Assembly: GCA_963772365.1 (NCBI GenBank)
Contig: CAVYXA010000004.1
Location: 1 to 64,000 of the forward strand
Length of the DNA: 64,000 nt
Origin: an uncultured Verrucomicrobiae bacterium
Lineage (GTDB): Bacteria > Verrucomicrobiota > Verrucomicrobiia > Chthoniobacterales > UBA10450
Direction: 5' to 3'
Each line of letters opens with the position of its first letter. Position 1 is the stretch's first letter. The notes under the pieces are model-generated. The model was not told where the DNA came from, did not search any database, and saw nothing but the letters and a program-made list of their open reading frames with translations. A program made the position numbers and the translations under genes. Of the stretch, positions 467-64,000 are shown piece by piece.

Positions 467-886
467 ATGCCTGTGCATCATCAGCAGATCGATGTCCCGA
501 CCGACGGCAAAGGCACCTACGAGATAACCGATCAAGTTCAGGAGAAGATCGACAAAAGCGGTATTCGTAACGGGATTGTGACCATTTTTGTCCAGCACAC
601 CAGTTGCAGTCTCATCGTGATGGAAAATGCAGATCCAACCGCCCGCCGCGATCTCGAAGAATTTTTTGAACGGCTGGTGCCGGAAGATACCGATTATTTT
701 GTCCACACTTCTGAAGGCGGCGATGACAGCACGTCCCACATTCGGACGGTGCTGACGCGGAGCAGCGAAATCATTCCGATTGTCGATGGTAAAATGAAGC
801 TTGGAACGTGGCAGGGGATTTTTCTGTTCGAACATCGCCGCGCGCCGCACCGGCGAAGGGCGCAAGTGACGATTCTGGGCGAGTAA
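467..886 (+). CDS. yjbQ: YjbQ/UPF0047 family protein (secondary thiamine-phosphate synthase)
   Basis: HTSCSL..ENADP, SHIR and LGTWQGIFLFEHR motifs. Confidence 0.9.
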   Translation: MPVHHQQIDVPTDGKGTYEITDQVQEKIDKSGIRNGIVTIFVQHTSCSLIVMENADPTARRDLEEFFERLVPEDTDYFVHTSEGGDDSTSHIRTVLTRSSEIIPIVDGKMKLGTWQGIFLFEHRRAPHRRRAQVTILGE

Positions 887-895
887 TTGTCGATC

Positions 896-2038
896 CTAGA
901 AATAAATCGCGTCTACGACTCTGAGTACCTTTTCGGTCGGCAAGACCGATCGCTCCATTTGATTCATCACATAGGCAAACCCGATCCTGTTTTCCGGATC
1001 GGCGAAGGCGTGACTCCCGCCAGCACCGGGATGACCGAACGCTGATTCCGAAGTTCCGAAAATTCTCCTCGCTGCCTGAGCGGAATCTTTCATGAACCCG
1101 GCTGAGAACGCCGTTGGAAACTGGAACACGCGATCGATTCCGTCGGTGAGCGTAGTTTTCATCAAGCCCACCGTGGCTTGGGAAAAAAATTCGTGCCCAT
1201 CTAATTTCCCGCCATTTGCAAGCATGGCGTAAAATTTCGCGAGCGAATTCGCTGTGCCAATTCCGCCAAACGAAACAATTGGCCTGGCCCGAAGATCAGG
1301 ATGATTCATCGCGCTGATCGACTGCAAACCGCGGGGAGATGTAAACACTTTATGAGCAAATGTGCCGCGGGTGGTGAGATCGACATAGAATTTCTTTGGT
1401 TCGGAAAATTCGCCAGCCTTTGGCGCATAGATCGTCGCGACACGCGAGTTTTCCTTTTCCGGCAAACCGATCCAAAGATCGAGACCGAGCAGTTCACGAA
1501 AGTTTTCTTCCCAATATTTGGCCAACGGTTTGCCTGCGATCCGGCGTACAAGTTCATCGAGCAAAAACCCGAAGGTGCGCGCGTGATAACCATGGGCCGT
1601 TCCCGGCGGCCAGTTCGGTGTTTGTTTTTCAATTGCTTCGATCACGGCCGGGTAATCGAGCACATCAACTTGTCGATCCAGCGCCGCCAGACCGGCGGAA
1701 TGGGAGAGCAATTCCCGCAAGATGATCTTATCCTTCCCGCCTTGGGCAAATTCCGGCCAGATCTCAGCGACTGGTTGAGCGATGTCGATCCTATTTTCCT
1801 GGAGGGCATGCGACACGGAGGCGCTGCCAAGCCCTTTTGTGGCCGACCAAATCAGAACCAGCGTGTCGAAACTCCACGCTTTCTCGCGGCGCACGTCTTC
1901 GAATCCACCGTGAAGATCGACAATCGGTTTTCCATTCTGCCAGATGGAAATTGCCGCGCCGAGCTCACCGAATTTCTCGAAGTTTTCCCGGAACAACGGC
2001 TCGACTCGTTGGCGCAGCTCATCAGCATTGAGTTGCAT
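896..2038 (-). CDS. Serine hydrolase, beta-lactamase class C / EstB family
   Basis: SATK (SxxK), LLSHSAGL, GYH, FGHPGAGG motifs. Confidence 0.9.
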   Translation of the reverse strand: MQLNADELRQRVEPLFRENFEKFGELGAAISIWQNGKPIVDLHGGFEDVRREKAWSFDTLVLIWSATKGLGSASVSHALQENRIDIAQPVAEIWPEFAQGGKDKIILRELLSHSAGLAALDRQVDVLDYPAVIEAIEKQTPNWPPGTAHGYHARTFGFLLDELVRRIAGKPLAKYWEENFRELLGLDLWIGLPEKENSRVATIYAPKAGEFSEPKKFYVDLTTRGTFAHKVFTSPRGLQSISAMNHPDLRARPIVSFGGIGTANSLAKFYAMLANGGKLDGHEFFSQATVGLMKTTLTDGIDRVFQFPTAFSAGFMKDSAQAARRIFGTSESAFGHPGAGGSHAFADPENRIGFAYVMNQMERSVLPTEKVLRVVDAIYF

Positions 2039-2073
2039 CCCGCGATGCTACATGAGCAATGGCTGGAGGCCAG

Positions 2074-2571
2074 CTAGAGCAGAGCCTGGAGGGATTGCAG
2101 ATCGGGATCTTTCTTGGCCAGCTCGCGAAAGGATTCGTCCATCTCGAAACTGGTGTGCAAATGAAGCCGCGCTTCCTGGAAATTGCCCAGAAGCGCATCG
2201 TAACAACCCATGTTGTAGTAATAGATCGGCTCATCCAGCAGGATGGATGGTCCTTTTAGCAGAACCTTTTTCGCTTCAGCCGTCTTGCCCATTTCGTGCA
2301 GGCAAAAACTGGCGTGCAAAAATCCGGTGCAACAATCCGGTGCAATTCGGCAGAGTTTCTGGCTCACTCGCAAACCTTCTGCCCAGCTTTTTTTCCGCAT
2401 CAGATTGTGCAACCGGAGCTGCAAGACTTCAGGACGATTTTGGAATTCATCCTCGATCGCATTTAGCTCGGCTATCGATTCGCGAATCATGTCCAATTCC
2501 GCGTAACCGCAAGCAGCCATCAATCGTCTCTCGAAGTCCACGGCAGACTCTTTAAGCAAAGAGCTTGCCAT
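2074..2571 (-). CDS. TPR-like helical repeat protein
   Basis: YYNMGCYDALLG...A..DPDL C-terminal TPR-end pattern. Confidence 0.7.
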   Translation of the reverse strand: MASSLLKESAVDFERRLMAACGYAELDMIRESIAELNAIEDEFQNRPEVLQLRLHNLMRKKSWAEGLRVSQKLCRIAPDCCTGFLHASFCLHEMGKTAEAKKVLLKGPSILLDEPIYYYNMGCYDALLGNFQEARLHLHTSFEMDESFRELAKKDPDLQSLQALL

Positions 2572-2586
2572 CGCTGTATCCGCGCT

Positions 2587-2646
2587 CTATAGCGTCGCCA
2601 CCCTCTGCATCCCTGCGTTTGCGACGGTCACAGACCGCCGCTACAG
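2587..2646. repeat. GTAG-type REP family B (degenerate left arm), overlapping the pepF stop codon
   Basis: GCGACGGTCACAGACCGCCGCTACAG at about 2621-2646; related copies at 18549, 24722, 34979. Confidence 0.8.
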
Positions 2647-4444
2647 CAACAGCTCTTCCAGTTCGTCCAGCCGCTGTTCAAACAGTCGAAGCGTGCTCTC
2701 GATCGGCCCAGGTGTTCCCATGTCGACGCCGGCTTCTTTCAATGTATCCAGAGGAAATTTCGAGCCGCCGGAGCGCAGAAAATTCAAATAAGCATCGACG
2801 CTTTCTGGCTCGCCGGAGAGGACTCGCTGCGAAAGGGCGACGGCTGCTGAAATCCCGGTCGCATATTTGTAAACGTAAAACGAATGATAGAAATGCGGGA
2901 TTCGCAGGCATTCCAAATCGAGTTCCGGATCGATCACAAAGTTTTCGGCAAAATATGAATTGAGCAGCTTGCGATATTCCGCTTTGAACACATCGAGAGT
3001 TAAAGCGTCGCCGCTCTCTTCGATGGCGTGAACGATCTTTTCGAATTCGGCAAACATTGTCTGGCGGAACAGCGTGCCGCGCAGATCATCGATCTGCCGG
3101 TTGATGATATAGGCCCGCATCTTGGGATCGCTGGTTTGCTGGAGCAGGTGATGGGTCAGCAGTTCCTCGTTAAAAGTCGAAGCCACTTCCGCCAGAAAAA
3201 TCGGGTAATCGTAATCCTGAAATAACTGCGTCTTTTGCGAGAACCAACTGTGCATCGAGTGGCCGGCTTCGTGCGCGAGGGTGTAGATATCGGCGAACAC
3301 ATCCTCTTTGTAATTCATCAGGATGTAAGGCGGCGCGCCGTAACTGCCGGATGAAAACGCACCGCTACGTTTCCCCTTGTTCTCGTAACGATCGCACCAG
3401 CGATTGCGTAATCCTTCGGTGAGAACATCGACATATTCTTTCCCGAGTGGAGCGAGAGCGGCCAGAACCATCTCGGCCGCGGAATCAAAACTGGTGCGCG
3501 TCTCGATCTCAGCAACAAGCGGCACATAGGTGTCGTAATGATGCAGTTCCTTCAGTTTCAGCGCGCGCCTGCGGAGATCGAAATAGTGAAAGAGCGGCTT
3601 TAGGTTCGCGCGGACCGATTGGATCAATCCATCGTAAACGGAAACCGGCACATCATCGGGAAATAAAGCCGCTTCCAGCGCCGACGGATAACGGCGCGCG
3701 CGTGCGTGAAATACATCAGTCTTGATCGAATAAGCCAACGCCGCAGCCAGCGTGTATTGATGGTCCTGAAACTCGGCATAAAACTGATGAAAAGCGCGTT
3801 TGCGCAATTCCGGGTCGCGTTTGACCAGAAACGAGCTGAACGAACTCTGCGTGAGCGGTTTTTCGTGGCCGGCCTCGTCAATCAGGCTCCCGAATTTCAT
3901 GTCCACATCGGTGAGCTGCGAAAAAGTTTCGTCGTATCCGCCAAGCGCGACACTTCCCAGCGCCAGGATCCGTTCTTCCGGCTCGGACAGGTACATGCGG
4001 TTTCATCCGGCGAATCTTGTGCAACTTGAATCGCCAATCTTTCAGCGCAGGATCGACAAGAAATTTCGCAAAGGCAGCCTCGTCGATCGCCTGAATTTCC
4101 GGAACAACGAACGCCGCTGCCTCACCGATTTTCGTGAGCAGGTTCTGTAGTTGGCCGACTCGCGCGAGATATTCGCCATTTGCACCATCTTCCGCCAGTT
4201 GGAGCGAAGCGAAGTGGTAAAGCTTTTCGATTTTCTGCTCGAGTTGCTTTTCAAACTCGAGACAGTCCGCCAGGTTTTTCGCAGAACTTCCGAGTTTTCC
4301 CTTCCATTCGGTGATTCGCGGATAAGTCTGTTGAACCCAGGCAAAGTCTTCCTGCCATTTGCCGACGTCAGCGAAAAGCTGCGTCAAATCCCACTTGTCG
4401 GACTCGGCAATGTCGTCGCGCGTTGGAGTCTTCGTTTCAGCCAT
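2641..4444 (-). CDS. pepF: Oligoendopeptidase F (M3B), split by a +1 frameshift near 3990
   Basis: N-part KWDLTQLF (3878-4444) and C-part with HEAGH zinc motif, KRSGAFS and FYVYKYATG (2641-3996). The junction reads HV(fs)LSEPEE. Confidence 0.9.
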
Positions 4445-4506: not shown

Positions 4507-5514
4507 ATGTCGATCAAACATCTTGTCGCCGCGTTTTTCGCTATTGCTTCGATCAACGCAGCGGAGCCGCCTTACAAATTTCTCGCTGAGATTCCGATCG
4601 GCGGCGAAGGCGGCTGGGACATTCTCAACATCGATGCGCAGGCGCACGAGCTTTATCTTTCGCACGCCACCAAGGTTGTCGTCGTCGATTTAACGAAGAA
4701 TTCGGTCGGCGGCGAAATTGGTGGCACGCCCGGTGTGCACTCCTTTTTGCCGGTCCCGGAGTTGCGGCGTGGTTTTTCATCCAATGGCAGGGAATCAAAA
4801 TCGAGCGTTGTCGATCTTACTACGCTGAAGACACTCTCGAAAATTGATACAGGCCAAAATCCGGACGCGATAGCGTACGATTCGAAGCGAGGCGAAATTT
4901 ACATTTTTAATCACAGCAGCAACTCGGTAACTGTCATCGACGCGAAAGCCGCGAAGGGTGCCGGGACGATTCCGTTAGGTGGAAATCCAGAGTTTGCCAT
5001 TGCCGACCCCGCGGCCGGCCGCGTTTACGTCAACATCGAGGATAAAAGCGAAGTCGAAGTGATCGACACGACAAAACATGAAGTGATTGCACATTGGCCG
5101 CTCGCGCCTGGCGAAGAGCCAACGGGAATTGCGCTCGACGCTGCGCATCACCGATTGTTCGCCGTCTGTCGCAACAAAATGATGATGATGCTCGATACGA
5201 GCTCTGGCAAAGTTGTCGCCCATGTCCCGATCGGTAGCGGAGTTGATGGCTGCGTCTTCGATGATGCGACTCAGCTTGTTTTCGCATCCTGCGGCGAAGG
5301 CGTCACCGTGATCGCGAAGGAAAAGTCGGCTGACGACTTATCGGTCGTGCAAGAGCTGCAAACACAACGCGGCGCCCGCACGATCGCGCTCGACCCCAAG
5401 ACCGACCGCATCTATCTGCCGACGGCGGATTTTGGTCCGCCATCTTCGCCAGGCGCGCGACCGTCAATCGTGCCCAACACGATGCGGCTGCTTGTCTACG
5501 GTCCCGAAAAATAG
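4507..5514 (+). CDS. Secreted YncE/YVTN-family beta-propeller protein
   Basis: Signal peptide, GGEGGWD motif, repeated beta blades, GARTIALDP. Confidence 0.85.
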   Translation: MSIKHLVAAFFAIASINAAEPPYKFLAEIPIGGEGGWDILNIDAQAHELYLSHATKVVVVDLTKNSVGGEIGGTPGVHSFLPVPELRRGFSSNGRESKSSVVDLTTLKTLSKIDTGQNPDAIAYDSKRGEIYIFNHSSNSVTVIDAKAAKGAGTIPLGGNPEFAIADPAAGRVYVNIEDKSEVEVIDTTKHEVIAHWPLAPGEEPTGIALDAAHHRLFAVCRNKMMMMLDTSSGKVVAHVPIGSGVDGCVFDDATQLVFASCGEGVTVIAKEKSADDLSVVQELQTQRGARTIALDPKTDRIYLPTADFGPPSSPGARPSIVPNTMRLLVYGPEK

Positions 5515-6258
5515 GTGCAACGCTTTCTTTTCCTCGCCTTGCTGGTCACGGCCGCGCGTTACGCCTTTGCCCAGGGCGGCCCGCCGATGATCACGGATGA
5601 TCCTGCAACGCCGGGTGCCGGCAAATGGGAGAACAATCTCGCGATCGCATTTGAGCATCGGACTAACGAGTGGTCGGTCGACGCGCCCGGCATCGACCTG
5701 AACTACGGCTGGGGCGATCACGTCCAGCTTACGCTCCAAACGTCGGTTGCACTCTTGAAGGGCGCCAATCCCGGACTCATCGGAGGTCTCGGCGGCACGG
5801 AGGCAGCAGTCAAATGGCGCTTCCTCGATGAGGAAACAAGCGGAGTCGATATGTCGATGTTCCCGCGAGTTCTCTTCCACGTCTTGCGCTCGTCCGTCCG
5901 CCGTGGCCTGGCGGAAAACGGGACGCGCTTCCAGATTCCATTTCAGGCGGCGAAGACGTTTGGTCCCGTCGTGTTCGATGTCGAACTTGGGCCGCTCATC
6001 AACTCGACCGATCGCGGCGAATTCCTCTCCGGATTTGTGGCGGCAACTGAACTGTCCAGGACCACGGCCATCATGGCGGAAGTGCATGCCACTTCACGGA
6101 TGAATTTCACCCGCGACGTGGTGATGCTGAATCTCGGTTGGCGGCACACCTTGAACAAGCATGCTGTCTGGATTTCCTCGTTAGGCCACGAAGTCCATTC
6201 CGGCACCGGTAAGCCGCTGGCTCTCATCGGCTACTGCGGGGTGCAGATCCTCTACTAA
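5515..6258 (+). CDS. Putative outer-membrane beta-barrel protein
   Basis: Signal peptide, GPPMITDDP.TP motif, amphipathic strands, aromatic C-terminus; abuts the YncE gene. Confidence 0.6.
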   Translation: MQRFLFLALLVTAARYAFAQGGPPMITDDPATPGAGKWENNLAIAFEHRTNEWSVDAPGIDLNYGWGDHVQLTLQTSVALLKGANPGLIGGLGGTEAAVKWRFLDEETSGVDMSMFPRVLFHVLRSSVRRGLAENGTRFQIPFQAAKTFGPVVFDVELGPLINSTDRGEFLSGFVAATELSRTTAIMAEVHATSRMNFTRDVVMLNLGWRHTLNKHAVWISSLGHEVHSGTGKPLALIGYCGVQILY

Positions 6259-6259
6259 G

Positions 6260-7051: not shown

Positions 7052-7129
7052 CGGTGCACGTCGCGTCCATCCTGCAGCAGAATCATTTAACTTTCGAACA
7101 GCGGGGCCGTGGCGGATGTCGCACCTTAC

Positions 7130-7481
7130 ATGAAGAAATTTTTTTTGGTTCTTCTCGCTTTTAGTATGTGCACTTTGGCGCTATCTGCTGCACGTGCCGA
7201 CTCTCCGGCCAATTCGAAATTGCGTCGGGAAGCGAAATTGACTCAGGCACAGGCGGAGAAGATTGCGCTGAAACGTACTTTGGGCGGTACGGCTAAGAGC
7301 GGCGAACTGGAGCGCGAACACGGACACTTGGTCTGGTCATTTGATATCGCGAAGCAGCACTCGCGCGACATCATCGAGGTGCTAGTCGATGCCAAGGATG
7401 GTGCGATCGTGAAGTGTACAGAGAGAAACGCCCGCAGATCAGGCGGCAGAAGCTCGCGCCGATCGTAGCCATATCCACTGA
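7130..7481 (+). CDS. PepSY-domain secreted protein; likely +1 frameshift near 7414
   Basis: ELEREHGHLVWSFDI...EVLVDAKDG; removing one A restores the tail VSVQRETPADQAAEARAD. Confidence 0.75.
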
Positions 7482-12273: not shown

Positions 12274-13497
12274 ATGATCACCTTCTCCTACCAAGCTCGA
12301 GATGCCAACGGTCGCATCGTTTCCGGCATCCAAGATGCCCTGAATGAAGATAATGCGGTAACCAGTTTGATGAGCCGAGGACTCATGGTCCTTTCTCTCC
12401 AAAAGAAGACCGTAATCAACCGGTCTCGCAAGAAAATCTGGTCGGTAAAAGAAACCGATCTTGTGCTGTTTACCCGCCAGCTTGCCACTATGATCGAAGC
12501 GGGCATCTCGCTGGTGCAGGCATTGACAGCCCTTTATGATCAGTGCGACCCAAGAAGGCAGCGCAACCTGCGATCGGTCATCAGCGATATAACGACTCGC
12601 GTCCAGGGTGGCGAGAGCTTCCACGAAGCGATTGCGAAGCATCCGCGCGTTTTCAACCGGCTGTTTACCAGCATGGTAAAAGCGGGTGAAACCGGTGGTT
12701 TGCTGGCCGAAATTCTCGATCGGCTGGCAGGATTCCTGGAAGCAAATGCCAGGCTCAAAAAGAAAGTCAAGTCGGCGATGACCTATCCGGTAATCGTTGT
12801 CTGTATTGCATTTGCTATCACGACATTTCTGATCGTTCGCGTGGTCCCGGTTTTTGCTGAAATCTTCAAGGATTTCGGGGCTAAATTGCCAGCGCCGACT
12901 CAATTCCTCATCGACGTGAGCGACTTCGTCCGCGCGGAGTGGTTCATTTTGCTCGCGCTTTTGGGCGGGGCATTTTTCGGCACGCGTGCATTCCTGCTTT
13001 CCAAGCGCGGCAGACAGTTTGCGGATAAGTGGAAACTAAAGCTGCCCGTGTTCGGCCCGCTCATTCACAAGATTTGCATGTCGCGCTTTTCGCGCACATT
13101 TGCCCAACTGATTCGCAGCGGCGTGCCGATTCTTGAGGTCCTCGAAATCGTGGGCGGCACATCGGGAAATCACGTCATCGAAAACAGCATCCAATCGGTC
13201 AGTGTGAATGTGGAAAAAGGCGACAATCTTTCGACTGCGCTCTCGAAACAAAAAGTTTTCCCGCCAATGCTGCTACGAATGGTCGCGGCTGGCGAAGCCA
13301 CCGGTAAGATCGACAGCATGCTCGAGAAAATGGCCGATTTCTGGGACGAAGAAATCGAAGCCATGCTCAATGCCCTTACTTCGCTGATCGAACCAATGCT
13401 CATCGTCTTTCTCGGTTTGATCGTGGGCGGCATCGTGATCGCCATGTTCCTCCCGATCTTCAAACTGAACGAAGTTGTTTCGCAGAGCAAAAGCTAG
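12274..13497 (+). CDS. pilC: Type IV pilus / T2SS inner-membrane platform protein (PilC/GspF)
   Basis: FTRQLATMI.AG, AGETGG.L, AMTYP, GEATG, IEP motifs; two T2SSF domains. Confidence 0.92.
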   Translation: MITFSYQARDANGRIVSGIQDALNEDNAVTSLMSRGLMVLSLQKKTVINRSRKKIWSVKETDLVLFTRQLATMIEAGISLVQALTALYDQCDPRRQRNLRSVISDITTRVQGGESFHEAIAKHPRVFNRLFTSMVKAGETGGLLAEILDRLAGFLEANARLKKKVKSAMTYPVIVVCIAFAITTFLIVRVVPVFAEIFKDFGAKLPAPTQFLIDVSDFVRAEWFILLALLGGAFFGTRAFLLSKRGRQFADKWKLKLPVFGPLIHKICMSRFSRTFAQLIRSGVPILEVLEIVGGTSGNHVIENSIQSVSVNVEKGDNLSTALSKQKVFPPMLLRMVAAGEATGKIDSMLEKMADFWDEEIEAMLNALTSLIEPMLIVFLGLIVGGIVIAMFLPIFKLNEVVSQSKS

Positions 13498-21537: not shown

Positions 21538-24500
21538 ATGCCGCGGAACGATCAGATCAAAAAAATTTTGCTCATCGGCTCGGGTCCAATCGTGATCGGA
21601 CAGGGCTGCGAATTTGATTATTCCGGCGTCCAGGCCTGCAAAGCCTTGCGCGAGGAACGCTACCAAGTCGTGCTGGTGAATTCCAATCCGGCCACGATCA
21701 TGACCGACCCGGAGTTTGCCGATCGTACTTACATCGAACCGATCACGGCCGAAGTCATTGAAGCGATCATCGAACGGGAAAAACCGGACGCGATCCTGCC
21801 GACAATGGGAGGTCAGACCGCTTTGAACGCGGCGATGGAACTTTATCGCAACGGCGCGCTTTCGCGGCATGGAGTGAAATTGATTGGCGCAAACGCGCAG
21901 GCGATCGCCAAGGGCGAAGATCGACAATTGTTCAAAGAAGCAATGCTGCGGATCGGGCTGGACGTGCCGCGCTCCGGGATCGCGCGCTCGATCGCCGATG
22001 CCAATCGCGTGGCGGACGAGATCGGCAAGTTTCCGTTGATTATTCGACCGGCGTTTACGCTGGGCGGTACCGGGGGCGGCATTGCTTACAATCGCGATGA
22101 GCTGAATGAAATCGCCGATCGCGGGCTGTCGCTTTCGCCTGTGACCGAAGTGCTCATCGAAGAATCGCTCGTTGGCTGGAAAGAATTCGAAATGGAAGTG
22201 ATGCGCGATCGCATGGACAACTGCGTTGTCGTTTGCTCCATCGAGAACTTTGATCCCATGGGTGTTCACACCGGCGACTCAATCACCGTCGCGCCGGTCC
22301 AGACTCTCACGGACAAGGAATATCAATTGATGCGCGATGCGTCATTCGCGGTCATTCGCGAAATCGGCGTCGAAACCGGCGGCTCAAATATCCAGTTCGC
22401 AGTCAATCCGGACAATGGCCGGATAGTTGTGATCGAGATGAATCCACGCGTCTCGCGCTCCAGTGCGCTCGCTTCCAAAGCGACCGGTTTTCCCATCGCC
22501 AAGATCGCGGCCAAGCTCGCAGTCGGCTATACCCTCGACGAAATCAAAAACGATATTACTCGCGAAACGCCCGCCTGTTTCGAGCCGACTATCGATTATT
22601 GCGTGGTCAAAGTGCCACGGTTCACTTTCGAGAAGTTTCCGCAAGCCGATCCGACGCTTACGACCCAGATGAAAAGCGTGGGCGAAGCGATGGCAATCGG
22701 CCGCACCTTTAAGGAAGCGCTGCAAAAAGCATTGCGCAGCCTTGAGATCAAACGTTTTGGTTTATGCGCTGACGGCGCCGAAAACCGCGTCGATCCCGAA
22801 ACATTGCGCCGCAAACTTTCGGTGCCTAACGCGGAGCGAATCTTCTACATCGCGCAAGCATTCCAGGACGGAATGTCGATCGATGAAGTGTATGACCTGA
22901 CGAAGATCGATAGATGGTTTTTGCGAAACCTGGCGGAGATTGTCACCGAGTCGCAATGCCTGAAAACGAAACCGTTGCTTCGCGCCAAGAAGCTCGGGTT
23001 CTCGGATCGACAACTCGCCATTGCCACCGGCACTCCCGAAAACGAAATCCGCACTTTGAGAAAATCGGCGGGCGTAGTGCCAACCTACCGCTTGGTCGAT
23101 ACCTGCGCCGCGGAGTTCGAAGCCTATACACCTTACTACTATTCGACATACGGTGATGAGAATGAGCGGCGCGAATCGGGCAAGCGCAAGATCATGATTC
23201 TCGGCGGCGGCCCGAACCGAATCGGGCAAGGAATCGAGTTTGATTACTGCTGTGTGCACGCCGCATTCGCCCTGCGCGAGCTTGGGTTTGAAACAATCAT
23301 GGTTAACTCGAATCCGGAAACCGTTTCCACCGATTATGACACGAGCGATAAACTCTATTTCGAGCCGCTCACGCTGGAGGACGCTCTCAACATTTATGAA
23401 CAGGAAAAACCAGAGGGCGTGGTTGTTCAGTTCGGCGGGCAGACGCCGTTAAATCTCGCTGATGGTCTGAAAACCGCCGGTGTGCCGATCCTCGGGACAC
23501 AGCCGGAAAGCATCGAGACCGCTGAGGATCGACAATTATTCGCCGCGATGCTCGACAAGCTTGGGCTGCGTCAAACGCCGAGCGGCTCAGCTGTGAGCAC
23601 AGACGAAGCTGTCGCCATCGCGGCAAAGGTCGGGTATCCGGTCTTAGTGCGGCCGTCATTCGTGTTGGGCGGTCGCGCGATGGAGCTCGTTTACAACGAG
23701 GAAGATCTCCGGCGTTACATGCAGAGCGCCATCGAAGTCACGCCCGAGCGGCCAGTTCTGGTGGATCGGTTTCTCGAAGACGCAATCGAGGTGGATGTCG
23801 ATTGCATCGCCGACGGTGAAACAACCGTGATCGGCGCGATCATGGAACACATCGAGCAGGCCGGGATTCACAGTGGCGACAGCGCCTGTGTAATTCCCAC
23901 GTTTTCTCTTCCGAAAAAAGTGATCGACGAAATTTCATCGGCAACGAAAGCGATGGCGCGCGAATTAAAGGTGCGCGGCCTCATGAACGTACAGTTTGCC
24001 GTCAAAGGCGAGGACGTTTACGTGCTGGAAGTAAATCCGCGCGCGTCGCGCACCGTGCCGTTCGTAAGTAAAACCATCGGTGTGCCGCTGGCCAAACTCG
24101 CCGCCAAAGTCATGGTGGGAAAAAAATTGACCGAGCTCGGGTTTACCAAAGAAATCGCGCCGGATCATTTTGCGGTTAAAGAAGCGGTCTTTCCGTTTCT
24201 GCGTTATCAGGGCGTAGACATTTCGCTCGGCCCGGAAATGAAATCGACCGGCGAAGTAATGGGGATCGATGTCGATCTTGGGCTCGCCTATGCCAAATCG
24301 CAGATGGCCGCGCCGCCGCCATTGCCGAAAGAAGGGAACGTTTTCGTTAGCGTAAAAGACAGCGACAAGGAGGCGGTCATCCCGGTCGTGCGCGAGTTTG
24401 TCGATCTCGGGTTCAAGATCATTTCGACTGAAGGCACGTTTGCCGCATTGAAAAAGGCGCGTGTCCCGGTGTCCAAGGTTTACAAAATCGGGCATGGTCG

Positions 24501-28031: not shown

Positions 28032-28889
28032 CTAACGAAGTCTGCGTCGGGCTTCGTCGAGATAGGTCTTGTCGATCTCGAACCCGATAAAGTTCGTTAT
28101 GCCGCAGCGCTGCGCGGCCACAGCGGAATTCCCGATCCCGAGGAACGGATCGAGCATGGTCTCCACGCGTGAGATGCCATGTAACTTGACGCACCATTCC
28201 GCGAGTTGAACCGGAAATGTAGCCGGATGCGGGCGTTCTTTTTCGCGGCTTTGGATGGTCTCGTAAGGAATAAACCAAGTGTTGCCACGGCAACGCAAAT
28301 CCTTACCAACGGTGTGATTCCAACGCGCGATGTTGCTCTTGTCCTGATAAGGAACTCCCAGTGCGAGGCGATCGATTTCCACGCGACCCGATTTCGTAAA
28401 GTGAAAAATGTATTCGTGACAATCATTGAGAAATCGCTTCGAGCTGATCGGCTTGAAATGACCGAATGTCCTCGCGATTTGATCCACTCTCACCCGGCGC
28501 TTCGCGGCCGCCTCTCCCTGCCTAGGGAGAGGATGGTCGTGTTTGAGGTTTTGGGGCTCAATCGCGATCGATTTGATCCAGTGAATCGTATTTTGCAGAA
28601 CGAAAAGTTCCCGAAACTGCAAAACGATTTCGTGCGGCAACATTGGATTGCTGGGCGCCGCGCCGATATTCAAGAAGAACGAGCCGTCAGATTTGAGCAC
28701 GCGCTGAATCTGTCCTGCCCATTGTTTGCACCATTTCAAATACGATTGTCGATTCTGCCGATCATGATATTTCCGATAGGCTATTCCGAGATTGTAGGGC
28801 GGTGAAGTTACAACGAGATCGACAGCTTCCGCCGGAAGTTTCGCCATTCCTTTTACGCAATCTTCCAGTCCGAGATCGAACTGCGTCAC
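28032..28889 (-). CDS. Orphan beta-class amino (N4-C/N6-A) DNA methyltransferase with an in-frame repeat insertion
   Basis: Motif IV TSPPY precedes motif I LDPFLGIG; HPATFP; no restriction enzyme gene adjacent. Confidence 0.9.
   Translation of the reverse strand: MTQFDLGLEDCVKGMAKLPAEAVDLVVTSPPYNLGIAYRKYHDRQNRQSYLKWCKQWAGQIQRVLKSDGSFFLNIGAAPSNPMLPHEIVLQFRELFVLQNTIHWIKSIAIEPQNLKHDHPLPRQGEAAAKRRVRVDQIARTFGHFKPISSKRFLNDCHEYIFHFTKSGRVEIDRLALGVPYQDKSNIARWNHTVGKDLRCRGNTWFIPYETIQSREKERPHPATFPVQLAEWCVKLHGISRVETMLDPFLGIGNSAVAAQRCGITNFIGFEIDKTYLDEARRRLR
28481..28535 (-). repeat. Palindromic element family A inside the methyltransferase ORF
   Basis: Minus strand CCTCTCCCT-AGGC-AGGGAGAGGCGGCCGCGAAGCGCCGGGTGAGAG; matches 34063, 41333, 59194. 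Confidence 0.88.
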
Positions 28890-36500: not shown

Positions 36501-39476
36501 GATGCCGGGCATTCCATCGTCGTAATCGAACACAATCTGGAAGTGATTAAATGCGCGGATTGGATCATCGATCTTGGACCCGAGGCTGGCGATGACGGCG
36601 GCGATGTCGTGGCGACAGGCACACCGGAGCAAGTAGCGAAGATCGAGAAGTCGCATACCGGAAGATTTCTTAACCGTGTCATCTCGAGCGAAGCGAAGCG
36701 CAGTCGAGAGATCCCGCAACGATATCAAACCGTTACTGCCCCGGGATCACCGGGCTTCGGTCAGAATGACAACATTGAATTTGCCCGAGCGGCGGAAATA
36801 TCGCCGCGTTTCCAGGCGAATGGCTCGACAGGGGCGATCGCGATTCACGGGGCGCGCGAGCACAACCTGAAAAACATCGACATCAAAATCCCGCGCGATC
36901 AGATGGTCGTGATCACGGGTTTGAGTGGCTCCGGTAAATCGACGCTCGCGTTTGACATCTTGTTAGCCGAAGGACAGCGCCGCTTTCTGGACAGCATGTC
37001 GCCTTATGCGCGTCAGTTTGTCGAACAACTCGAGAAACCCGATGTCGATCTTGTTGAGGGCTTACCACCCAGCGTCGCGATCGAACAGCGCGTCACCCGC
37101 GGTGGTGGGAAATCAACCGTGGCTACGGTGACGGAAGTTTATCATTTCCTCCGATTGTTGTTTGCCAAGACGGGGACACAGTTTTGTCCCGACTGCGATT
37201 TGCCGGTCGAAAAACAAAGCCTGGCTGCGATCGTGAGGCAGGTGGAGACGGCGGTCCGGCGGCGGCCGGACGGGCCGCTGAAAGTGCTTGCGCCGTTGGT
37301 CAAGGCTCGCAAAGGTTTTCACACCGACGTGGCGCGTTGGGCGGAGAGACAGGGATTCGATACGCTGTATGTCGATGGTACGCTGCTGCCCGTCACGCAG
37401 TTTCGGAAGCTCGAGCGATTCAAGGAGCACACCATTGATGTCGTCGTTGGCGTTATCGATGCCAAACGAATTTTGAAATCGCGCAATCTGACGCAGCGCG
37501 CGCTCGATATCGGTCGCGGCACGGCGCACCTGCTGGATGCGAAAAATCGCCTCACGGTGATGAGCACGGAGATGAGCTGTCCCGGATGCGGGCGGGCGTT
37601 TGAAGAACTCGATCCGCGTTTGTTCTCGTTCAACTCGCCTCACGGCGCGTGCGAAGAGTGTGGCGGGTTTGGCGAAATTTGGAACCAGGATTTGCAGACG
37701 GGCCAAAGCGACGATGGTGAATCCGCTCTCGAGAATGAGCTAGTGGCCGAGCGCGAATCGGAATGGATCGACGAAGAAGAAGCGCGCGAGTGCCCGAGCT
37801 GTCACGGCTCGCGCTTGAACGAAGTTGCTCGCCATGTGCGGGTGCAGGGATGCACTATCGACGATTTCACAAATCTTTCGGCCAGCGAAGCTGCGCGTAA
37901 GATCGACAAGCTGAAATTTCACGGAACACAAAAAACTATCGCATCGGAATTATTGCCGGAAATTCGGCAAAGGCTGCGATTCATGGAAAACGTCGGGCTC
38001 GGTTATCTCGCGCTGGGGCGATCGGCCAAGACCTTGAGCGGCGGCGAATCGCAACGCATCCGTCTGGCTGCGCAGCTTGGGTCGAATCTGCGCGGTGTAC
38101 TTTACGTGCTCGATGAACCCACGATCGGTCTGCATCCACGAGACAATCTGCGCTTGCTCGAAACGCTCATCGCGTTGCGAAAAAAGGGAAACTCGCTTGT
38201 GATTGTCGAGCACGACGAAGAAACAATGCGGCGCGCCGATCACATTGTCGATCTTGGGCCGCGGGCGGGAATCCATGGCGGCGAGGTCGTAGTGAGCGGA
38301 ACGTTGCGAGACATCGAGCGGGCGAAAAATTCCGAGACCGGGCGCTGTTTGAAAACGCCGCTTTGTCATCCAATTCGCAAATCGCGACGGTCGCTGCGCA
38401 CGGTCGAGAACTGGATCGAGATTCGAAAGGCGCGCGTCAATAATCTGAAAGATGTTGATGTTCGGTTCCCAGTGGGACGCTTATCGGTCATTACCGGAAT
38501 TTCCGGCTCCGGGAAATCGACTTTGATGCACGATGTGATCTGGCCCGCTGTGCGCGATGAATTGGAAGCGAAAAAGCGCGGCGGCAATGGCGACTTGTTC
38601 AAACTTGTCAGCGGCGCGACCGAGATCGAAGCCGTTTACGAAGTCGATCAATCGCCCATCGGCAAAACGTCGCGCTCGACCCCGGGCACGTACATCAAAG
38701 TGTTCGATGAGATTCGAAACCTTTACGCTCAACTCCCTGTCTCGCGCGTCCGCGGTTATTCAGCCAGCCGCTTTTCGTTTAATGCCGAAGGCGGCCGTTG
38801 CGAAGCGTGCAAAGGGCAGGGCGTGATCAAGCTGGAGATGAATTTTCTGCCGAATGCGCTGGTGCCGTGTGAGGAATGCGGCGGGCGCCGCTACAATCCG
38901 CAAACGCTCGAAGTTCTCTACAACGAAAAATCGATTGGTGACGTAATGGAGATGACGATTGAAGAAGCGGCGCAATTTTTCTCGGCGCATCCAAAGATTG
39001 CGCGGTCGCTCGATTTGTTAGTCGAAACCGGTCTTGGTTATCTCAAGCTCGGCCAACCGAGCCCGACCTTGAGCGGTGGTGAAGCGCAGCGCCTCAAGTT
39101 GGTCACACAGCTCAAACGCGGAGTGAATCGCGCCGCCAACGAGCGGATCCGGAAAATGCGGAAACCGGGATCGACATTATATTTGCTGGAGGAACCAACC
39201 ATCGGCCTTCACATGGCCGACGTGGAATTATTGCTCAACGTGTTGCATCGCCTCGTCGATGAAGGGAACACCGTAATCGTGATCGAGCACAATCTCAGCG
39301 TGATCGCCGAGGCTGATTACATTGTCGATCTTGGACCGGAAGCGGGAGCAGAGGGCGGCGAAATCGTCGCAACGGGCACGCCGGAAGAAGTGTCCAAAAA
39401 TCGAATCAGCCGCACAGCACCGTTCTTGCGAGAAATCTTGAAATCATCACGCACCAAAACAGCGGTGTCATCCTGA
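33583..39476 (+). CDS. uvrA: Double-length excinuclease ABC subunit A (two fused UvrA units); 1-nt frameshift near 35670; several in-frame repeat insertions
   Basis: Four Walker A motifs (GPSGSGKS, GVSGSGKS, GLSGSGKS, GISGSGKS), LSGGE signatures, zinc fingers; the junction GA(fs)EHNLKNI joins ORFs 33583-35712 and 35727-39476. Confidence 0.93.
34063..34125 (+). repeat. Family A element in frame in uvrA
   Basis: AGCGACCCTCAACTCAATCCTCTCCGTGGCCAGGGAGAGG..., close match to the intergenic copy at 41333. Confidence 0.88.
34432..34459 (+). repeat. Heptamer tandem repeat (CCTCATC)x3 + CCTTATC in uvrA
   Basis: Directly visible; encodes PHPSSLIPYP. Confidence 0.85.
34979..35049. repeat. Family B REP doublet in frame in uvrA
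   Basis: CTGTAGCGGCGGTCTATGGCCGTCG...GCGCCGCTACAG. Confidence 0.85.
35510..35571. repeat. GTAG-type REP doublet (family C) in frame in uvrA
   Basis: TTGTAGGGCAGGCGCTCCGCCTGCC...GGCAAGCGATGCGCTTGCTCTACAA. Confidence 0.8.
36363..36397 (+). repeat. Degenerate heptamer tandem repeat (AACGNNN) in uvrA
   Basis: AACGCCG AGCACCC AACGCCT AACGTGG AACGCGG. Confidence 0.6.
36677..36771. repeat. Family D element in frame in the linker between the two UvrA units
   Basis: TGTCATCTCGAGCGAAGCGAAGCGCAGTCGAGAGATCCC...GGGATC...GAATGACA. Confidence 0.82.
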
Positions 39477-52958: not shown

Positions 52959-54704
52959 CTACAGTGACGACGACGATTCCGTTTGTCGATTGTGATCGCT
53001 CAGAAAAATGCATTCATTCTCCAGTCCGAGCAGCATGCCCCATTTCAATGGGAATGTCTCCAGATTCACCGTCCGCGAAATAATTGGCGCCCACGCGCTG
53101 TATTCTCCTTTCAAAATGTCGCCGAGGGTATTTTGGCTGCCGCTGATGGGTGTGAGATAAAGACCGTAAACCGGGCCGCCAAGAATTCTGTAATCGCTGA
53201 TATCGGTCATCTCCTTGATCGTTTCCGGCACATAGAGAGCGCGCCGATCGGCATACCACGCCACCGCCCACGGCATATCGGACGCGGTCACCTCGTTAGG
53301 CTTCATCCAATCGTTCAACACGGCGATGTAGGGCGGAACATAAGGCGGCCAGCGGATCGATGACTCCGGTTGTTTGAAGAATGGTAGTTTTAGGATCAGG
53401 GGCGTAGCGCAAAGTAAAAACAACAGCGTGATGAATGCGATCCGCGCCACTCGAAGACGCAGCTCCAATCGACGCCATTGGACCAGAAGGAACGCGAGCC
53501 CGTAGCAGGTCATCAGCGGCACAAACATCAGGTGCAGTTGGTTTGCGGCAAAACCTTGTTCTTCATTGACGCCAAAGACGGCCATGCCTGTGACGCCGCC
53601 GAGCCACATGGTCAAAAGCATCCATCGAATTGTTCCCGTTTCGCGGCGTCTGAAAACGTAAAGCAGCCCGGCAAAAAACATGATCGCGACAATGCTGTAG
53701 CCGAAATATCCGAAGAGTCCCGCCGCCTGATTCAAAAAATTGGTGACGATCTTATCGCGGAAACTCGAAGGGAGAGCACTCCCTTCCAAGTCCAAACTCA
53801 GCCGCCGCATCCAGCCGGATTCGGTATGCTGGATTCCGTCGAGAACGGAATAGATCGCCAGACCCGCAGGATTTCCACTAACGAGATAATTTCGGATCAG
53901 CCACGGAAAATAAACAATCGCGAACGCAGCCAACAAAACGAGAGCAGCCCAGCCCCGCGGCCGAAAAAAGAAAACGCAGTAAATGAATGCAGCGACAAAA
54001 ATCCAGATAGTCAGCGCGTGAGTGAGGGCCAGAAGTCCGAAACCGAGCCCGACGAAGGCCAGCCACAATCCCACGCGTCCGCCGCCATATCGTGCTTCGA
54101 CAGCGCGAACCAGTGCATACATGGTGCAGTTGAACAAAAACAGCAGCAGCATCTGAGGCAGACCGGAGAGCGAGTACTGCCAGAACATGTCGCAGAGCAA
54201 GACCAGCGCGCACGTCATCAAAGCCAGACGCTGATCGAACAATCGCCGCACAATAAGGTAGAGAACCACTACCGAAAGCAAAAAGAGCGCGATCGCCATC
54301 ACCACGACCGCCCGATCCCCAGCGTATAGAACGTCGGCCGGCGTCATTTTCCAGTGGGATTTGATCGGGAAAAGCGCAATCGCATCCACCAAAGACGGCA
54401 ACGGCGCATTATAAGTGTCGATCCAAATTTTCTGCGGCACATCTTTGCCATGGGCCAGCAGGTTCCCAATCGAGAGTGGCCGGGCAAAATTCGTTCGCCA
54501 ACCATGACCGCGAGCAATTTCCCGACCGATTTGCGCCTGATCCATCGCCTGCGAGGTGGCCAGCCCGCGGAACTCGTGCGTCATATAAAAGATAGCCAGC
54601 AGTGCAACGCCCGCCAGGGCGAGGCCGCGACGCATCCAAACTACGGGCTTGCCAGCTTCTAGACTGTGAACTAGGCGCTGGATGAATTCTGCGCTACCTG
54701 GCAT
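52959..54704 (-). CDS. GT-C fold membrane glycosyltransferase (GT39/ArnT-like)
   Basis: AMD.AQIGR.IARG.G, PL, multiple TM helices, PWLIRN...GNP. Confidence 0.7.
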   Translation of the reverse strand: MPGSAEFIQRLVHSLEAGKPVVWMRRGLALAGVALLAIFYMTHEFRGLATSQAMDQAQIGREIARGHGWRTNFARPLSIGNLLAHGKDVPQKIWIDTYNAPLPSLVDAIALFPIKSHWKMTPADVLYAGDRAVVVMAIALFLLSVVVLYLIVRRLFDQRLALMTCALVLLCDMFWQYSLSGLPQMLLLFLFNCTMYALVRAVEARYGGGRVGLWLAFVGLGFGLLALTHALTIWIFVAAFIYCVFFFRPRGWAALVLLAAFAIVYFPWLIRNYLVSGNPAGLAIYSVLDGIQHTESGWMRRLSLDLEGSALPSSFRDKIVTNFLNQAAGLFGYFGYSIVAIMFFAGLLYVFRRRETGTIRWMLLTMWLGGVTGMAVFGVNEEQGFAANQLHLMFVPLMTCYGLAFLLVQWRRLELRLRVARIAFITLLFLLCATPLILKLPFFKQPESSIRWPPYVPPYIAVLNDWMKPNEVTASDMPWAVAWYADRRALYVPETIKEMTDISDYRILGGPVYGLYLTPISGSQNTLGDILKGEYSAWAPIISRTVNLETFPLKWGMLLGLENECIFLSDHNRQTESSSSL

Positions 54705-59517: not shown

Positions 59518-59549
59518 GTCTTACAATCTTGCCCGGATGGCACGATCCG

Positions 59550-61565: not shown

Positions 61566-61724
61566 ATTTTTTCCAAAGATTGATTGTGGGGCGAGAAGCA
61601 ATTTGATCTTGGGGGAGGCACTTGTGGATATTCTCGCTGGAATGGAACGGCCTTTTTACGCACTTTCCGCCAGAAACGCAAGAAAAAAATTCTAGGATCG
61701 AGCCAGGCCGAATGGTGTTTGCCA

Positions 61725-62052
61725 ATCGCGCAGGAAGCGTTTGTCCGTAGGCACCGCCAATAAAGACGTTGTTGTTCAATACCAAATCGCCAGCTGGCGC
61801 GTGCTGGTATTAAACGGGGCATAATCGGACTTGCCGTCGCGGTTAAAGTCCGCTGTGCCAGTCAAGATTTAACCGGTGGCGATGGTTGGGCCATAGACGC
61901 CGCCGACAAACACATTGTTATTCAAATACCAGATCGCGGATTGGCGAGTCGCAGCGTTGAAGAGCAGGTAATCGGTTTTGCCGTCGCCGTTGAAATCGCC
62001 GACAGCCACCAATTCCCCAGCCGCTGGGCAGCGTTGGGCCGTATGCGCCGGC
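61725..62052 (-). pseudogene. Degenerate FG-GAP repeat cassette paralogous to the tail of the neighbouring gene
   Basis: GAYGPTLPSGW / GDFNGDGKTDYLLFNAATRQSAIWYLNNN, with an in-frame TAA (61869-61871) and two frameshifts. Confidence 0.8.
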
Positions 62053-62536
62053 ATCGGGAAATGTCCCACCGGGTTGTCCGCGACGCGTCCACGTTGGTGG
62101 ACTTTGAGGTAAGTGGAATCAATCTCGCTCATCACCACCGACGCTGGCTTGGGCTAAAGCTTGACCGGGCCACCATTGTCGATCGGGCTGCTGGCAGAGT
62201 TTTGCTCCACGGAGCACGTACCGCCAAATCAACCGCCCACTCAATCGCACCCGCAGCCAGCGTGGAAGTTCCCGCGCCGCCGGCCGGTAATTGCCTGAGC
62301 CGCGCTCGTAGAAAACCCCCAATCGAACAGGTCTCAGAAATCATCCATCAGCTCACGGACAAGGCGTGGCGCGGGTCGGAGTCATCGTCAGCAAATTGGA
62401 AAAGCAGCTTCGCAAAAGAGCGCGATATTCTCTCGGCGTCCGGCAACCAAGCGGCCAGTGCTCTTGGGCTTTTCGTAAGCGCGGTCCACTCTTGCGCGAT
62501 TCGTGTCCCGCATAAATAGTGCTTCTGCCTAAATCG

Positions 62537-63229
62537 ATGAAACGATTGGTCCTGATTTTTTTACTGCTCCTACTGGCTCAGTCGTCACAGGCCCGCACGA
62601 CCGAACGCGAGTGGATCATCCTCGTAGGTGGTCCATCGCTTTACCAATGGGAGAAATACAAGGCCTATCCGCATGATCATTGGTGGGCCAATTTTGTGCG
62701 GGCAGCCCGGATCCGCACCGAACAATTGCGGGCCGTGGGGACGAACGCGAAGATTACCTGGCTGGTTTACAAGCAGGGCTATATCTCCCGTGGCAAACAG
62801 GACCATCAGGATTTGCTCAGCTACATCGATTCCGTGCGCGACAAATACAATCTCAAGCTCGTTTATTTTCAAACCGGTGCCGATGTTATCAATTACCTAA
62901 ACAACGGCCAACCGCGCGATCGGGTGAAAGTGGCCGGGTTCGAATATTTCGGTCACTCGAACAAGGCCTGTTTCATGTTCGATTACAGCAACAATCTCGA
63001 CAGCGCTTCAAAAGCTTGGCTGCACGAAAATGATTTGGTGAAAATCGATCGCCACATTTTTGCGCACCCGACCTATGCCCGAAGCTGGGGTTGTCATACT
63101 GGCGAAAGCATGTCGCGAAAATGGTACAACGCGACCGGTACGCATATGTTCGGCGCAATCGGCAAGACACAGTTCATGATGGAAGAATTGCCGATTCTCA
63201 CTTCAGCCAACGGCAGGTGGGTCAATTAG
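62537..63229 (+). CDS. Secreted hypothetical protein with a possible clan-CD His/Cys dyad
   Basis: Signal peptide; FEYFGHS and SWGCHTG motifs. Confidence 0.65.
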   Translation: MKRLVLIFLLLLLAQSSQARTTEREWIILVGGPSLYQWEKYKAYPHDHWWANFVRAARIRTEQLRAVGTNAKITWLVYKQGYISRGKQDHQDLLSYIDSVRDKYNLKLVYFQTGADVINYLNNGQPRDRVKVAGFEYFGHSNKACFMFDYSNNLDSASKAWLHENDLVKIDRHIFAHPTYARSWGCHTGESMSRKWYNATGTHMFGAIGKTQFMMEELPILTSANGRWVN

Positions 63230-63303
63230 GAATCATCACGAATACTTGGCCAAAATAGAATCCAATGTGCTAGACTGAAACAGGGCTGTCCTCTTTTCTC
63301 CTT

Positions 63304-64000
63304 ATGAAACACACGTTTTTTCTTCACGCGCTCGTTGTCCTGTTTGGGATCAATTCTTCGCTCCATGCAGCGGTTAACGTCACGCAGGAGCACAACAACC
63401 TCTCGCGCGACGGCGTTTACGTCGATGCGGCCTTTACTGCATCCGCGGCCGCCAATCTGACCCGCGACCTCAACTTCAACGGGGCGATCTCGGGCAATAT
63501 GCTTTCCCAACCGCTCTACATTGAAGGCGGCCCAAATGGACCGATGGTGATTGCCGCGACGGAATCGAACAACGTCTACGCGCTGAATGCGATTACCGGC
63601 AGCATCATTTGGCAGCGTAACCTCGGTAACCCGGCGACGAGCGGTTTGCCGTGCGGCAACATCAATCCCCTCGGAATCAGCGATACGCCGGCTGTCGATC
63701 TTCCGTCCCGCGCGCTCTTTCTGGACGCCATGGTCGATACCGGAACTGCCAAGAAGCATCTTATTTTCTCACTGAATGTAGACACGGGCGCGACCAATCC
63801 CGGTTGGCCAGTGGATGTGAGTGCCGCGTTTCCATCATTTGATTCTCCCCATCACAACAATCGCGGCGCGCTCGCTGTAGTGAACGGTATCATCTACGTG
63901 CCATACTCGGGGCACTTCGGAGATTGCACTCCATACCGGGGTTGGGTCGTTGGCGTGCAGATCGACAATCCCTCGGCTGTCTTGGCTTGGTCCACGAGCG
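63304..64000 (+). CDS. Secreted PQQ-like beta-propeller protein (partial, runs off the right edge)
   Basis: Manual translation MKHTFF...AAVNVTQEHNNLSRDG...QPLY...ATESNNVYALNA.TG..IWQ...GISDTPAVD. Confidence 0.75.
   Translation, partial: MKHTFFLHALVVLFGINSSLHAAVNVTQEHNNLSRDGVYVDAAFTASAAANLTRDLNFNGAISGNMLSQPLYIEGGPNGPMVIAATESNNVYALNAITGSIIWQRNLGNPATSGLPCGNINPLGISDTPAVDLPSRALFLDAMVDTGTAKKHLIFSLNVDTGATNPGWPVDVSAAFPSFDSPHHNNRGALAVVNGIIYVPYSGHFGDCTPYRGWVVGVQIDNPSAVLAWSTS

What the first reader, a model, noticed from the sequence alone, without database searches (positions are those of the whole stretch)
546..63968. Non-palindromic motif TTGTCGATCT / AGATCGACAA repeated about once per kb: candidate uptake-sequence or HIP1-like genome signature
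Seen: exact 10-mers read by eye at 546, 1914, 4808, 8165, 8748, 9011, 11529, 14159, 21918, 24398, 24804, 28069, 30007, 37900, 38245, 39322, 41643, 48301, 51600, 55130, 59504 and 63959. That is 22 copies, 14 as TTGTCGATCT and 8 as AGATCGACAA. The 8-mer core TGTCGATC/GATCGACA occurs roughly 70 times. Uniform-base expectation for 64 kb on both strands is about 0.1 and 2 respectively. The motif sits inside genes in different frames and orientations (KIDK, IVDL, LSIL, EDRQ, GSTI peptides), so one codon-pair preference does not explain it. I found no core copy in about 5100-7500, 45400-47700 or 59520-62100, which look accessory. Established: Neisseria DUS and Pasteurellaceae USS are 9-12 nt, non-palindromic, about 1 per kb and not strand-skewed; cyanobacterial HIP1 is linked to methylation; Chi and KOPS are strand-polarised. 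Inference: an undescribed DNA-uptake or methylation/repair-driven signal in this lineage. It contains overlapping TCGA and GATC, and the window has both pilC and an orphan methyltransferase.
Basis: partly seen in the sequence, partly recalled or inferred. Interest (0 to 1): 0.85.

Follow-up and report, generated by a model that had tools for sequence, protein, structure and literature searches.

The report
Uptake-signal-like DNA word, soil Verrucomicrobia
A soil bacterium and one branch of its relatives have written the same 10-12-letter DNA word hundreds to thousands of times through their genes, while sister branches use a different word; this looks like the self-DNA tags that Neisseria and Haemophilus use to choose DNA for uptake, but uptake has not been tested.

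Summary
Observation confirmed: 22 exact copies (0.2 expected), 76 cores. The better register is TGTCGATCTT (consensus RWTGTCGATSYT, 'word A'): 1048 copies in this 3.35-Mb Chthoniobacterales genome. It survives 5th-order Markov (10x) and tripeptide-preserving codon shuffles (4x), shows no strand polarity or terminator pairing, and is missing from islands. Sites are kept in place in A-rich relatives (143 of 289) but not in A-poor ones (13 of 347). Word A is confined to part of one family (37 of 147 genomes at 150/Mb or more, up to 1600/Mb; at most 14/Mb in 298 other Verrucomicrobiota). Most A-poor genera carry a second word, TCGTTAGGC, which persists as a remnant here; one genus has both. The genome encodes type IV pilus genes, ComEC, DprA and pilins folding like Thermus ComZ, but its ComEA is truncated. 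Best reading (about 60%): a DNA uptake sequence spread by biased uptake and recombination, with a switch of word. No reader was identified, and the link to competence genes weakens once kinship is considered. Not found in print. This scan noted the second word, and probably this one, earlier on other genomes.

The parts
546..63968 (.). Dispersed word A, consensus 5'-R W TGTCGAT S Y T-3' (reverse AAGATCGACAWY): 76 cores TGTCGATC, 28 TGTCGATCTT and 22 TTGTCGATCT in the window, on both strands
21919..21926 (-). Example site in carB (read as EDRQ), present at the same position in all 7 A-rich genomes compared and in none of 4 A-poor ones
39323..39330 (+). Example site in uvrA (read as IVDL), present in all 7 A-rich genomes compared and in none of 3 A-poor ones
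6178..6186 (+). Remnant copy of the sister word B, TCGTTAGGC
53293..53301 (+). Remnant copy of the sister word B, TCGTTAGGC
12274..13497 (+). PilC/GspF-family platform protein, one of three in the genome; context only. The other pilus and competence genes lie outside the window
28032..28889 (-). Orphan N6/N4 DNA methyltransferase (SPPY motif, closest solved relatives are cytosine-N4 enzymes); conserved whether or not word A is abundant, so judged not to be the driver

Best explanation
Word A is a DNA uptake sequence. SHOWN: it is a fixed, flankless, non-palindromic 10-12-mer with an intolerant inner TCGAT, held as DNA (silent positions included) across one clade, and it has bent the proteome. 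INFERRED: a surface or periplasmic part of the type IV competence machinery prefers DNA carrying the word; fragments with a better word enter and recombine more often, so the word accumulates in long-resident genes on either strand and is missing from recent imports. The family used word B (TCGTTAGGC) first; the ancestor of this clade gained a preference for A, and B decayed to a remnant here. Candidate readers are the ComZ-like tip-pilin cassettes or the nuclease-ComEA fusion; neither is shown. In this genome the drive may be fading, because comEA is truncated.
For: Enrichment over Markov-5 (1048 vs 105) and tripeptide-context codon shuffle (909 vs 225), in all six frames. No polarity. Pairs under 100 bp depleted. 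Absent from IS, Rhs, restriction and glycan islands, two of which were tested and are missing or patchy in 5 relatives. Sites kept in A-rich orthologues 143 of 289, silent codon identity 0.88 vs 0.57 expected. Motif-encoded tripeptides 777 vs 403 in A-poor orthologues, matching the doubling reported for DUS/USS (PMC2817400, abstract). Density 313/Mb here and up to about 1600/Mb against 867/Mb for the meningococcal DUS (computed from PMC2817400, Introduction). Clade-wise words like DUS dialects (PMC3630211, passages). ComEC, DprA, PilB, PilT/U, secretins present; a PilX-like pilin matches only ComZ significantly in the PDB (E 1e-9; Z 13.8). Two A-genomes with intact ComEA hold 9 of 12 lineage-unique sites and the sharpest word.
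Against: No uptake or binding data. ComEC is in 38 of 40 relatives, including families without either word. This genome's comEA is a 5' remnant and was not found in 4 of 5 other A-genomes tested, a remnant in the fifth. The link between word density and ComEA plus ComZ is clear per genome (median 498 vs 146/Mb) but not per genus (rho 0.22, p 0.21; 5 of 10 within-genus contrasts). Genus g15 is A-rich yet gave 0 of 4 ComZ-like matches with this query. The ComZ-like tree does not separate A-rich from A-poor genomes. [quoted passage not shown] No terminator pairs, unlike DUS/USS. A and B share only TCG.T and coexist unmixed in genus g42.
Confidence: 0.6

Rival explanations
1. A cytoplasmic self mark: a nuclease, helicase or recombination factor spares or favours DNA with the word in either orientation (a non-polar counterpart of Chi), giving the same drive after DNA has entered by any route.
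For: Explains persistence of A in genomes without intact ComEA and the weak genus-level link to uptake genes. Earlier unchecked scan notes report word B in phages and in Gemmatimonadaceae, which fits a reader that matters inside the cell.
Against: Chi-type signals are oriented with replication (recalled); here 146/154 and 242/271 on the two skew segments of contig C1. No candidate gene found. My viral scans found no A-rich contig, which is weak because the patterns were narrow.
Confidence: 0.2
2. Another transfer route with a sequence-specific start (packaging by a gene transfer agent or transducing phage, or nicking for conjugation-like chromosome transfer) spreads the word by recombination.
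For: Gives the same core-genome, orientation-neutral accumulation (inference).
Against: No such apparatus was looked for or seen; nothing in the logo suggests a longer start or nick site.
Confidence: 0.06
3. Binding site of an abundant chromosome-organising protein, kept by direct selection.
For: Even density along contigs and conservation of sites.
Against: No periodicity, uniform along genes, less dense between genes (0.56 vs 0.75/kb); density varies a hundredfold inside the family and some genera have almost neither word.
Confidence: 0.07
4. HIP1-like by-product of methylation or methyl-directed repair at the GATC/TCGA inside the word.
For: The word contains GATC and TCGA; HIP1 reaches similar densities and is tied to two methylases (10.64898/2026.06.24.733823, abstract).
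Against: Not palindromic; GATC is not enriched (57144 vs 56578 by Markov-2); no C5 methyltransferase (genome 90% complete); the window's methyltransferase is in A-poor genomes too; word B behaves alike without these sites.
Confidence: 0.06
5. Codon, peptide or composition artefact, or a repeat element.
For: Part of the count reflects favoured peptides (the tripeptide null already gives 922 cores).
Against: Excess over every null in all frames; no shared flanks; orthologues of A-poor relatives have 29 cores where this genome has 347.
Confidence: 0.01

Closest known systems
DUS of Neisseriaceae (10-12-mer, eight dialects, read by minor pilin ComP)
   Same: Non-palindromic 10-12-mer without flanks, hundreds to over a thousand per Mb, inner core least tolerant, clade-wise variants, kept in core genes, rare in recent imports.
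   Different: Unrelated sequence and phylum; no terminator pairs (about half of DUES lie in predicted terminators, 10.1101/2025.10.24.684340, passages); 87% in coding DNA against 34.5% for N. meningitidis (PMC2817400, outline table); two barely related words can coexist; no ComP-like pilin recognised.
USS of Pasteurellaceae (Hin and Apl types)
   Same: Two clade-specific words in one family; doubled tripeptides; sites at less conserved residues (58.5% vs 72.4% identity to A-poor orthologues).
   Different: No extended three-part motif with flanking segments; A and B differ far more than the two USS types and are both abundant in genus g42.
HIP1 (GCGATCGC) of cyanobacteria
   Same: Very high density in genes, no strand bias, proposed link to transformation.
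   Different: HIP1 is a palindrome read by two methylases and quasi-periodic; word A is neither, and GCGATCGC is not enriched here (690 vs 665-862 by Markov 1-4).
Chi and KOPS
   Same: Short asymmetric genome-wide words.
   Different: No orientation bias.
ComZ of Thermus thermophilus (PDB 6QVI)
   Same: The PilX-like pilins of this family share its pilin-plus-beta-solenoid fold and sit beside two minor pilins.
   Different: 10-12% identity; multi-copy and mobile here; Thermus uptake has no apparent sequence specificity.

Membership tests
DNA uptake sequences (DUS/USS) | Preferential uptake of DNA carrying the word | not testable with these tools
   Needs competent cells or purified receptor.
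DNA uptake sequences (DUS/USS) | Strong genome-wide excess of a short non-palindromic word beyond codon and peptide bias | tested here: met
DNA uptake sequences (DUS/USS) | No replication-strand polarity | tested here: met
DNA uptake sequences (DUS/USS) | Sites more conserved than surrounding DNA, placed at permissive positions | tested here: met
DNA uptake sequences (DUS/USS) | Rare in recently acquired DNA | tested here: met
   Longest gaps hold islands; two gaps tested against 5 relatives; no full pan-genome test.
DNA uptake sequences (DUS/USS) | Encoded tripeptides about doubled | tested here: met
   777 vs 403 for 18 chosen tripeptides
DNA uptake sequences (DUS/USS) | Complete competence machinery | tested here: inconclusive
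   ComEC, DprA, pilus genes present; comEA truncated here, intact in the densest A-genomes.
DNA uptake sequences (DUS/USS) | Receptor that co-varies with the word | tested here: inconclusive
   ComZ-like cassettes and ComEA do not track A cleanly.
DNA uptake sequences (DUS/USS) | Inverted pairs in transcription terminators (common trait, secondary) | tested here: not met
   Of 61 core pairs within 60 bp, 4 are outside genes and 2 of those inverted.
HIP1 | Palindrome GCGATCGC with cognate methylases | tested here: not met
HIP1 | Methylation of the word in vivo | not testable with these tools
   No runs listed; no signal data.
Chi / KOPS | Orientation follows replication | tested here: not met
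Integron attC sites (for word B in this genome) | Inverse core 35-135 bp upstream, outside genes | tested here: not met
   6 of 86 have an inverse core (background 5%); 63 of 86 lie in genes.

The most novel reading that the evidence does not exclude
One family of soil Verrucomicrobiota evolved sequence-specific DNA uptake independently of Neisseriaceae and Pasteurellaceae, with two separate signals read by exchangeable ComZ-type pilus-tip cassettes (or a nuclease-ComEA fusion); its genomes record the switch in progress: B only, A plus B, A with remnant B, and decay after loss of competence genes.
Probability: 0.3. Interest if true: 0.9.

Novelty: new variant of a known kind. Interest (0 to 1): 0.72.

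Why it matters
Sequence-specific DNA uptake is described for two proteobacterial families. A case in soil Verrucomicrobiota would be an independent origin, and a family holding two words at densities from background to about 1600/Mb is a natural experiment on how such signals arise, switch and decay, which cannot be followed in Neisseria or Haemophilus. The words also give a marker for binning and for spotting foreign DNA, and a practical hint for transforming these bacteria.

Tried and rejected
Replichore polarity, periodicity, terminator pairing and flank conservation: tested, none found. Under-representation of CGATCG and ATCGAT is partly an artefact of the word; it shrinks after masking (0.81 and 0.94 of expected). 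The A-free, 67-72% GC ends of contigs C1 and C3 were first taken for islands; their housekeeping-like genes suggest assembly chimeras, so they were not used as evidence for recent imports. A third word was sought in 20-100-kb samples of 9 genomes poor in both words; none seen. ComZ-like pilins as word-specific readers: unresolved (54 sequences in the tree, several loci missed by the extraction pattern). Sequence search of the pilin against the PDB found nothing. No sequencing run was listed for the second pilin cassette, so its frameshift could not be checked. Rfam found only a tRNA in the window. Literature: no paper holds TGTCGATC, GATCGACA, TCGTTAGGC or GCCTAACGA as whole words; topic searches listed no uptake sequence for Verrucomicrobiota. 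The library lacks most subscription papers, and supplements were not searched.
Full report
OBSERVATION. The 22 coordinates are exact, 14 on + and 8 on -, against 0.21 expected from 100 dinucleotide shuffles; the core TGTCGATC occurs 76 times against 4.3. The window is the start of contig C4 of a 3.35-Mb, 55% GC, 90% complete genome. Its CarB is closest to a Chthoniobacterales record (86%, L002), so it is a member of Verrucomicrobiota; the family is unnamed here (f1).

THE WORD. The consensus is R W TGTCGAT S Y T with no information beyond about 12 bases; single changes in the inner CGA are rare (2-25 copies each) while C to G at position 8 (299) and T to C at position 9 (483) are common. I call it word A.

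NULLS. Fifth-order Markov gives 105 for the 10-mer (10x) and 1133 for the core (2.1x); these nulls are inflated by the word itself. With my own gene calls (3048 genes), genes hold 2058 cores and 909 10-mers, against 335 and 68 (synonymous shuffle within genes, 8 runs), 922 and 225 (synonymous shuffle keeping both neighbouring residues, 5 runs), 160 and 12.5 (codon order, 8 runs), about 535 and 46 (dicodon chain, 3 runs); all six frames exceed the two synonymous nulls.

LAYOUT. No polarity: 146/154 and 242/271 on the opposite-skew segments of C1, and 1190 of 2365 neighbours share orientation. Pairs closer than 100 bp are depleted (107 vs 167 expected), gaps over 6.4 kb in excess (32 vs 20.5); of 61 pairs within 60 bp only 4 lie outside genes. 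Density is even along genes, with no periodicity, and 0.56/kb in short spacers against 0.75/kb in genes. The longest native gaps carry IS-like transposases, Rhs pieces, a type I restriction system and glycan genes (read from the sequences, not family-scanned); one 13.7-kb gap was found in 0 of 5 relatives and a 19.6-kb gap is missing from 2 of 5 and patchy in 3, whereas the window segment 21-41 kb matched all 10 relatives searched.

HELD AS DNA. In codon alignments to relatives (613 aligned segments), this genome's cores are kept exactly in 143 of 289 comparisons with 9 A-rich genomes and 13 of 347 with 12 A-poor ones. All 8-mers are kept at 0.11 and 0.08; five control words of similar make-up at 33 of 121 and 23 of 153, so the fairer contrast is 49% vs 27% and 4% vs 15%. 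Where the residue is unchanged, the codon inside the word is identical in 414 of 470 cases (0.88) against 0.57 expected. Counting each site once, 59 of 107 are kept in at least one A-rich relative and 11 of 197 in an A-poor one. Residues under the word are less conserved than average against A-poor orthologues (58.5% vs 72.4%) and 18 chosen encoded tripeptides are about doubled (777 vs 403; genes counted once per relative). Both traits are reported for DUS and USS (PMC2817400, abstract and Introduction; PMC2397512, passages).

DISTRIBUTION AND A SECOND WORD. Among 147 published family genomes, A reaches 150/Mb or more in 37 (13 genera; up to about 1600/Mb), 50-150 in 14 and under 50 in 96. In 298 Verrucomicrobiota outside the family it never exceeds 14/Mb. 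Sampling A-poor genomes revealed word B, TCGTTAGGC: 300/Mb or more in 34 of 147, up to 1355/Mb, and at most 12/Mb in 74 genomes of other families of the order. Four genomes of genus g42 are rich in both, as separate words. Seven A-rich genomes split from four A-poor ones with support 1.0 on 1059 residues and share sites that the others lack; a ComEC-based tree of 21 genomes was less clean, placing G007 apart and two A-poor genomes inside the A group. This genome keeps 86 B copies (11.9 by Markov-3; a reversed control word has 65), 63 in genes and not attC-like, twice as often in A-free gaps as random positions (34% vs 17%), and 6 of 11 aligned copies are shared with A-poor relatives. Inference: B is older and A was added in one clade. 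No third word was seen in genomes poor in both.

MACHINERY. Present outside the window: ComEC, DprA, four PilB-like and several PilT/U-like ATPases, three full secretins, ComM- and ComF-like genes (by recalled motifs), and two cassettes of two minor pilins, a 600-residue PilX-like pilin and a 190-residue protein. The model of the intact pilin (pLDDT 78) has one significant PDB match, Thermus ComZ (Foldseek E 1.1e-9; Z 13.8, 354 aligned, rmsd 9.1), a DNA-binding competence pilin proposed to cap the pilus (PMC6561018, passages). The family's ComEA is a secreted staphylococcal-nuclease-like domain fused to the HhH domain, matched in 96 of 151 genomes; here only a frameshifted 5' remnant is left, and the second pilin cassette has a frameshift near its start that could be a sequencing error.

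FOR AND AGAINST A LINK. For: in 14,976 co-aligned bases the two A-genomes with intact ComEA have 35 and 31 of 50 sites and 9 of 12 unique ones; the five without have 17-25 and 3 unique, this genome none. Their word is also sharper (10-mer per core 74/99 and 78/109 against 1048/2371 here). Among genomes at least 90% complete, those with both ComEA and a ComZ-like match have median 498 words/Mb (n 36) against 146 (n 62). Against: by genus the correlation is 0.22 (p 0.21) and only 5 of 10 within-genus contrasts go the same way; ComEC is near-universal (38 of 40); A-rich genus g15 gave no ComZ-like match with my query; the cassettes are multi-copy, sit at different loci, and their tree mixes A-rich and A-poor genomes. 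The frequent position-8 and position-9 variants are concentrated in this genus and look more like a relaxed preference than plain decay (inference). The tallies include unpublished genomes G003, G008, G014 and, for 36 and 63, G151; no other claim rests on them.

METHYLATION. No C5 methyltransferase was found. The window's orphan enzyme resembles cytosine-N4 methyltransferases and is conserved in A-rich and A-poor genomes. GATC is not enriched and B has no such site. HIP1, by contrast, is a palindrome recognised by two methylases (10.64898/2026.06.24.733823, abstract).

VERDICT. A real, clade-specific, selected or driven DNA word that works like an uptake sequence on every genomic test but one (terminator pairs), with the defining test, uptake, out of reach. 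I put uptake-driven accumulation at 0.6 and an intracellular self mark at 0.2. The drive model is cited from its title in a reference list (Maughan et al. 2010) and from passages of PMC2397512; DUS dialects from passages of PMC3630211; terminator figures from passages of 10.1101/2025.10.24.684340. My searches found neither word in print; subscription papers and supplements were not covered. Earlier notes of this scan describe word B repeatedly, a 10-12-base word in another Chthoniobacterales genome that is probably A (letters hidden), and replacement of B in sister lineages; I had found B before reading them.

Noticed in passing
G000:C1:1-60000 and G000:C3:775000-832895 (L098-L101): Contig ends of 66-72% GC with housekeeping-like genes and almost no word A; probably DNA of other bacteria joined in assembly (about 120 kb).
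   Followed up: partly
L320:769-1680 (G007) and G000:C1:675025-675300 (L405): The family's ComEA is fused to a staphylococcal-nuclease-like domain behind a signal peptide; a candidate periplasmic DNA-cutting uptake protein. Truncated remnants in G000 and G051.
   Followed up: partly
L092:9871-13824 and L093:5385-9249: Mobile, multi-copy four-gene cassettes (two minor pilins, ComZ-fold pilin with a weak HpsA match, 190-residue protein); the intact one here belongs to a clade otherwise seen in A-poor genomes.
   Followed up: yes
   Followed up: partly
window 33583-39476: Double-length UvrA split into two ORFs; short repeats that recur many times in relatives lie near 34980-35050, 35510-35570 and 39460-39560.
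   Followed up: no
window 2641-4444 and 28941-30590: Oligopeptidase F is split in two frames and Lon lacks its N-terminal part; with a split PilU-like gene on C3 this suggests assembly frameshifts.
   Followed up: no
L094:12-464: Integron-integrase-like ORF end (recognised by eye); about three attC-like B copies elsewhere in the genome.
   Followed up: no
G017:C7 and G017:C2: The pckG-uvrA region matches twice in this relative: duplication or contamination.
   Followed up: no
genus g10 (13 genomes): All keep ComEA but none matched the ComZ-like query, G010 gave no ComEC match, and word A is low to middling: possible decay after loss of other competence genes.
   Followed up: partly
window 369-441: A tRNA gene, the only Rfam match in the window.
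   Followed up: no
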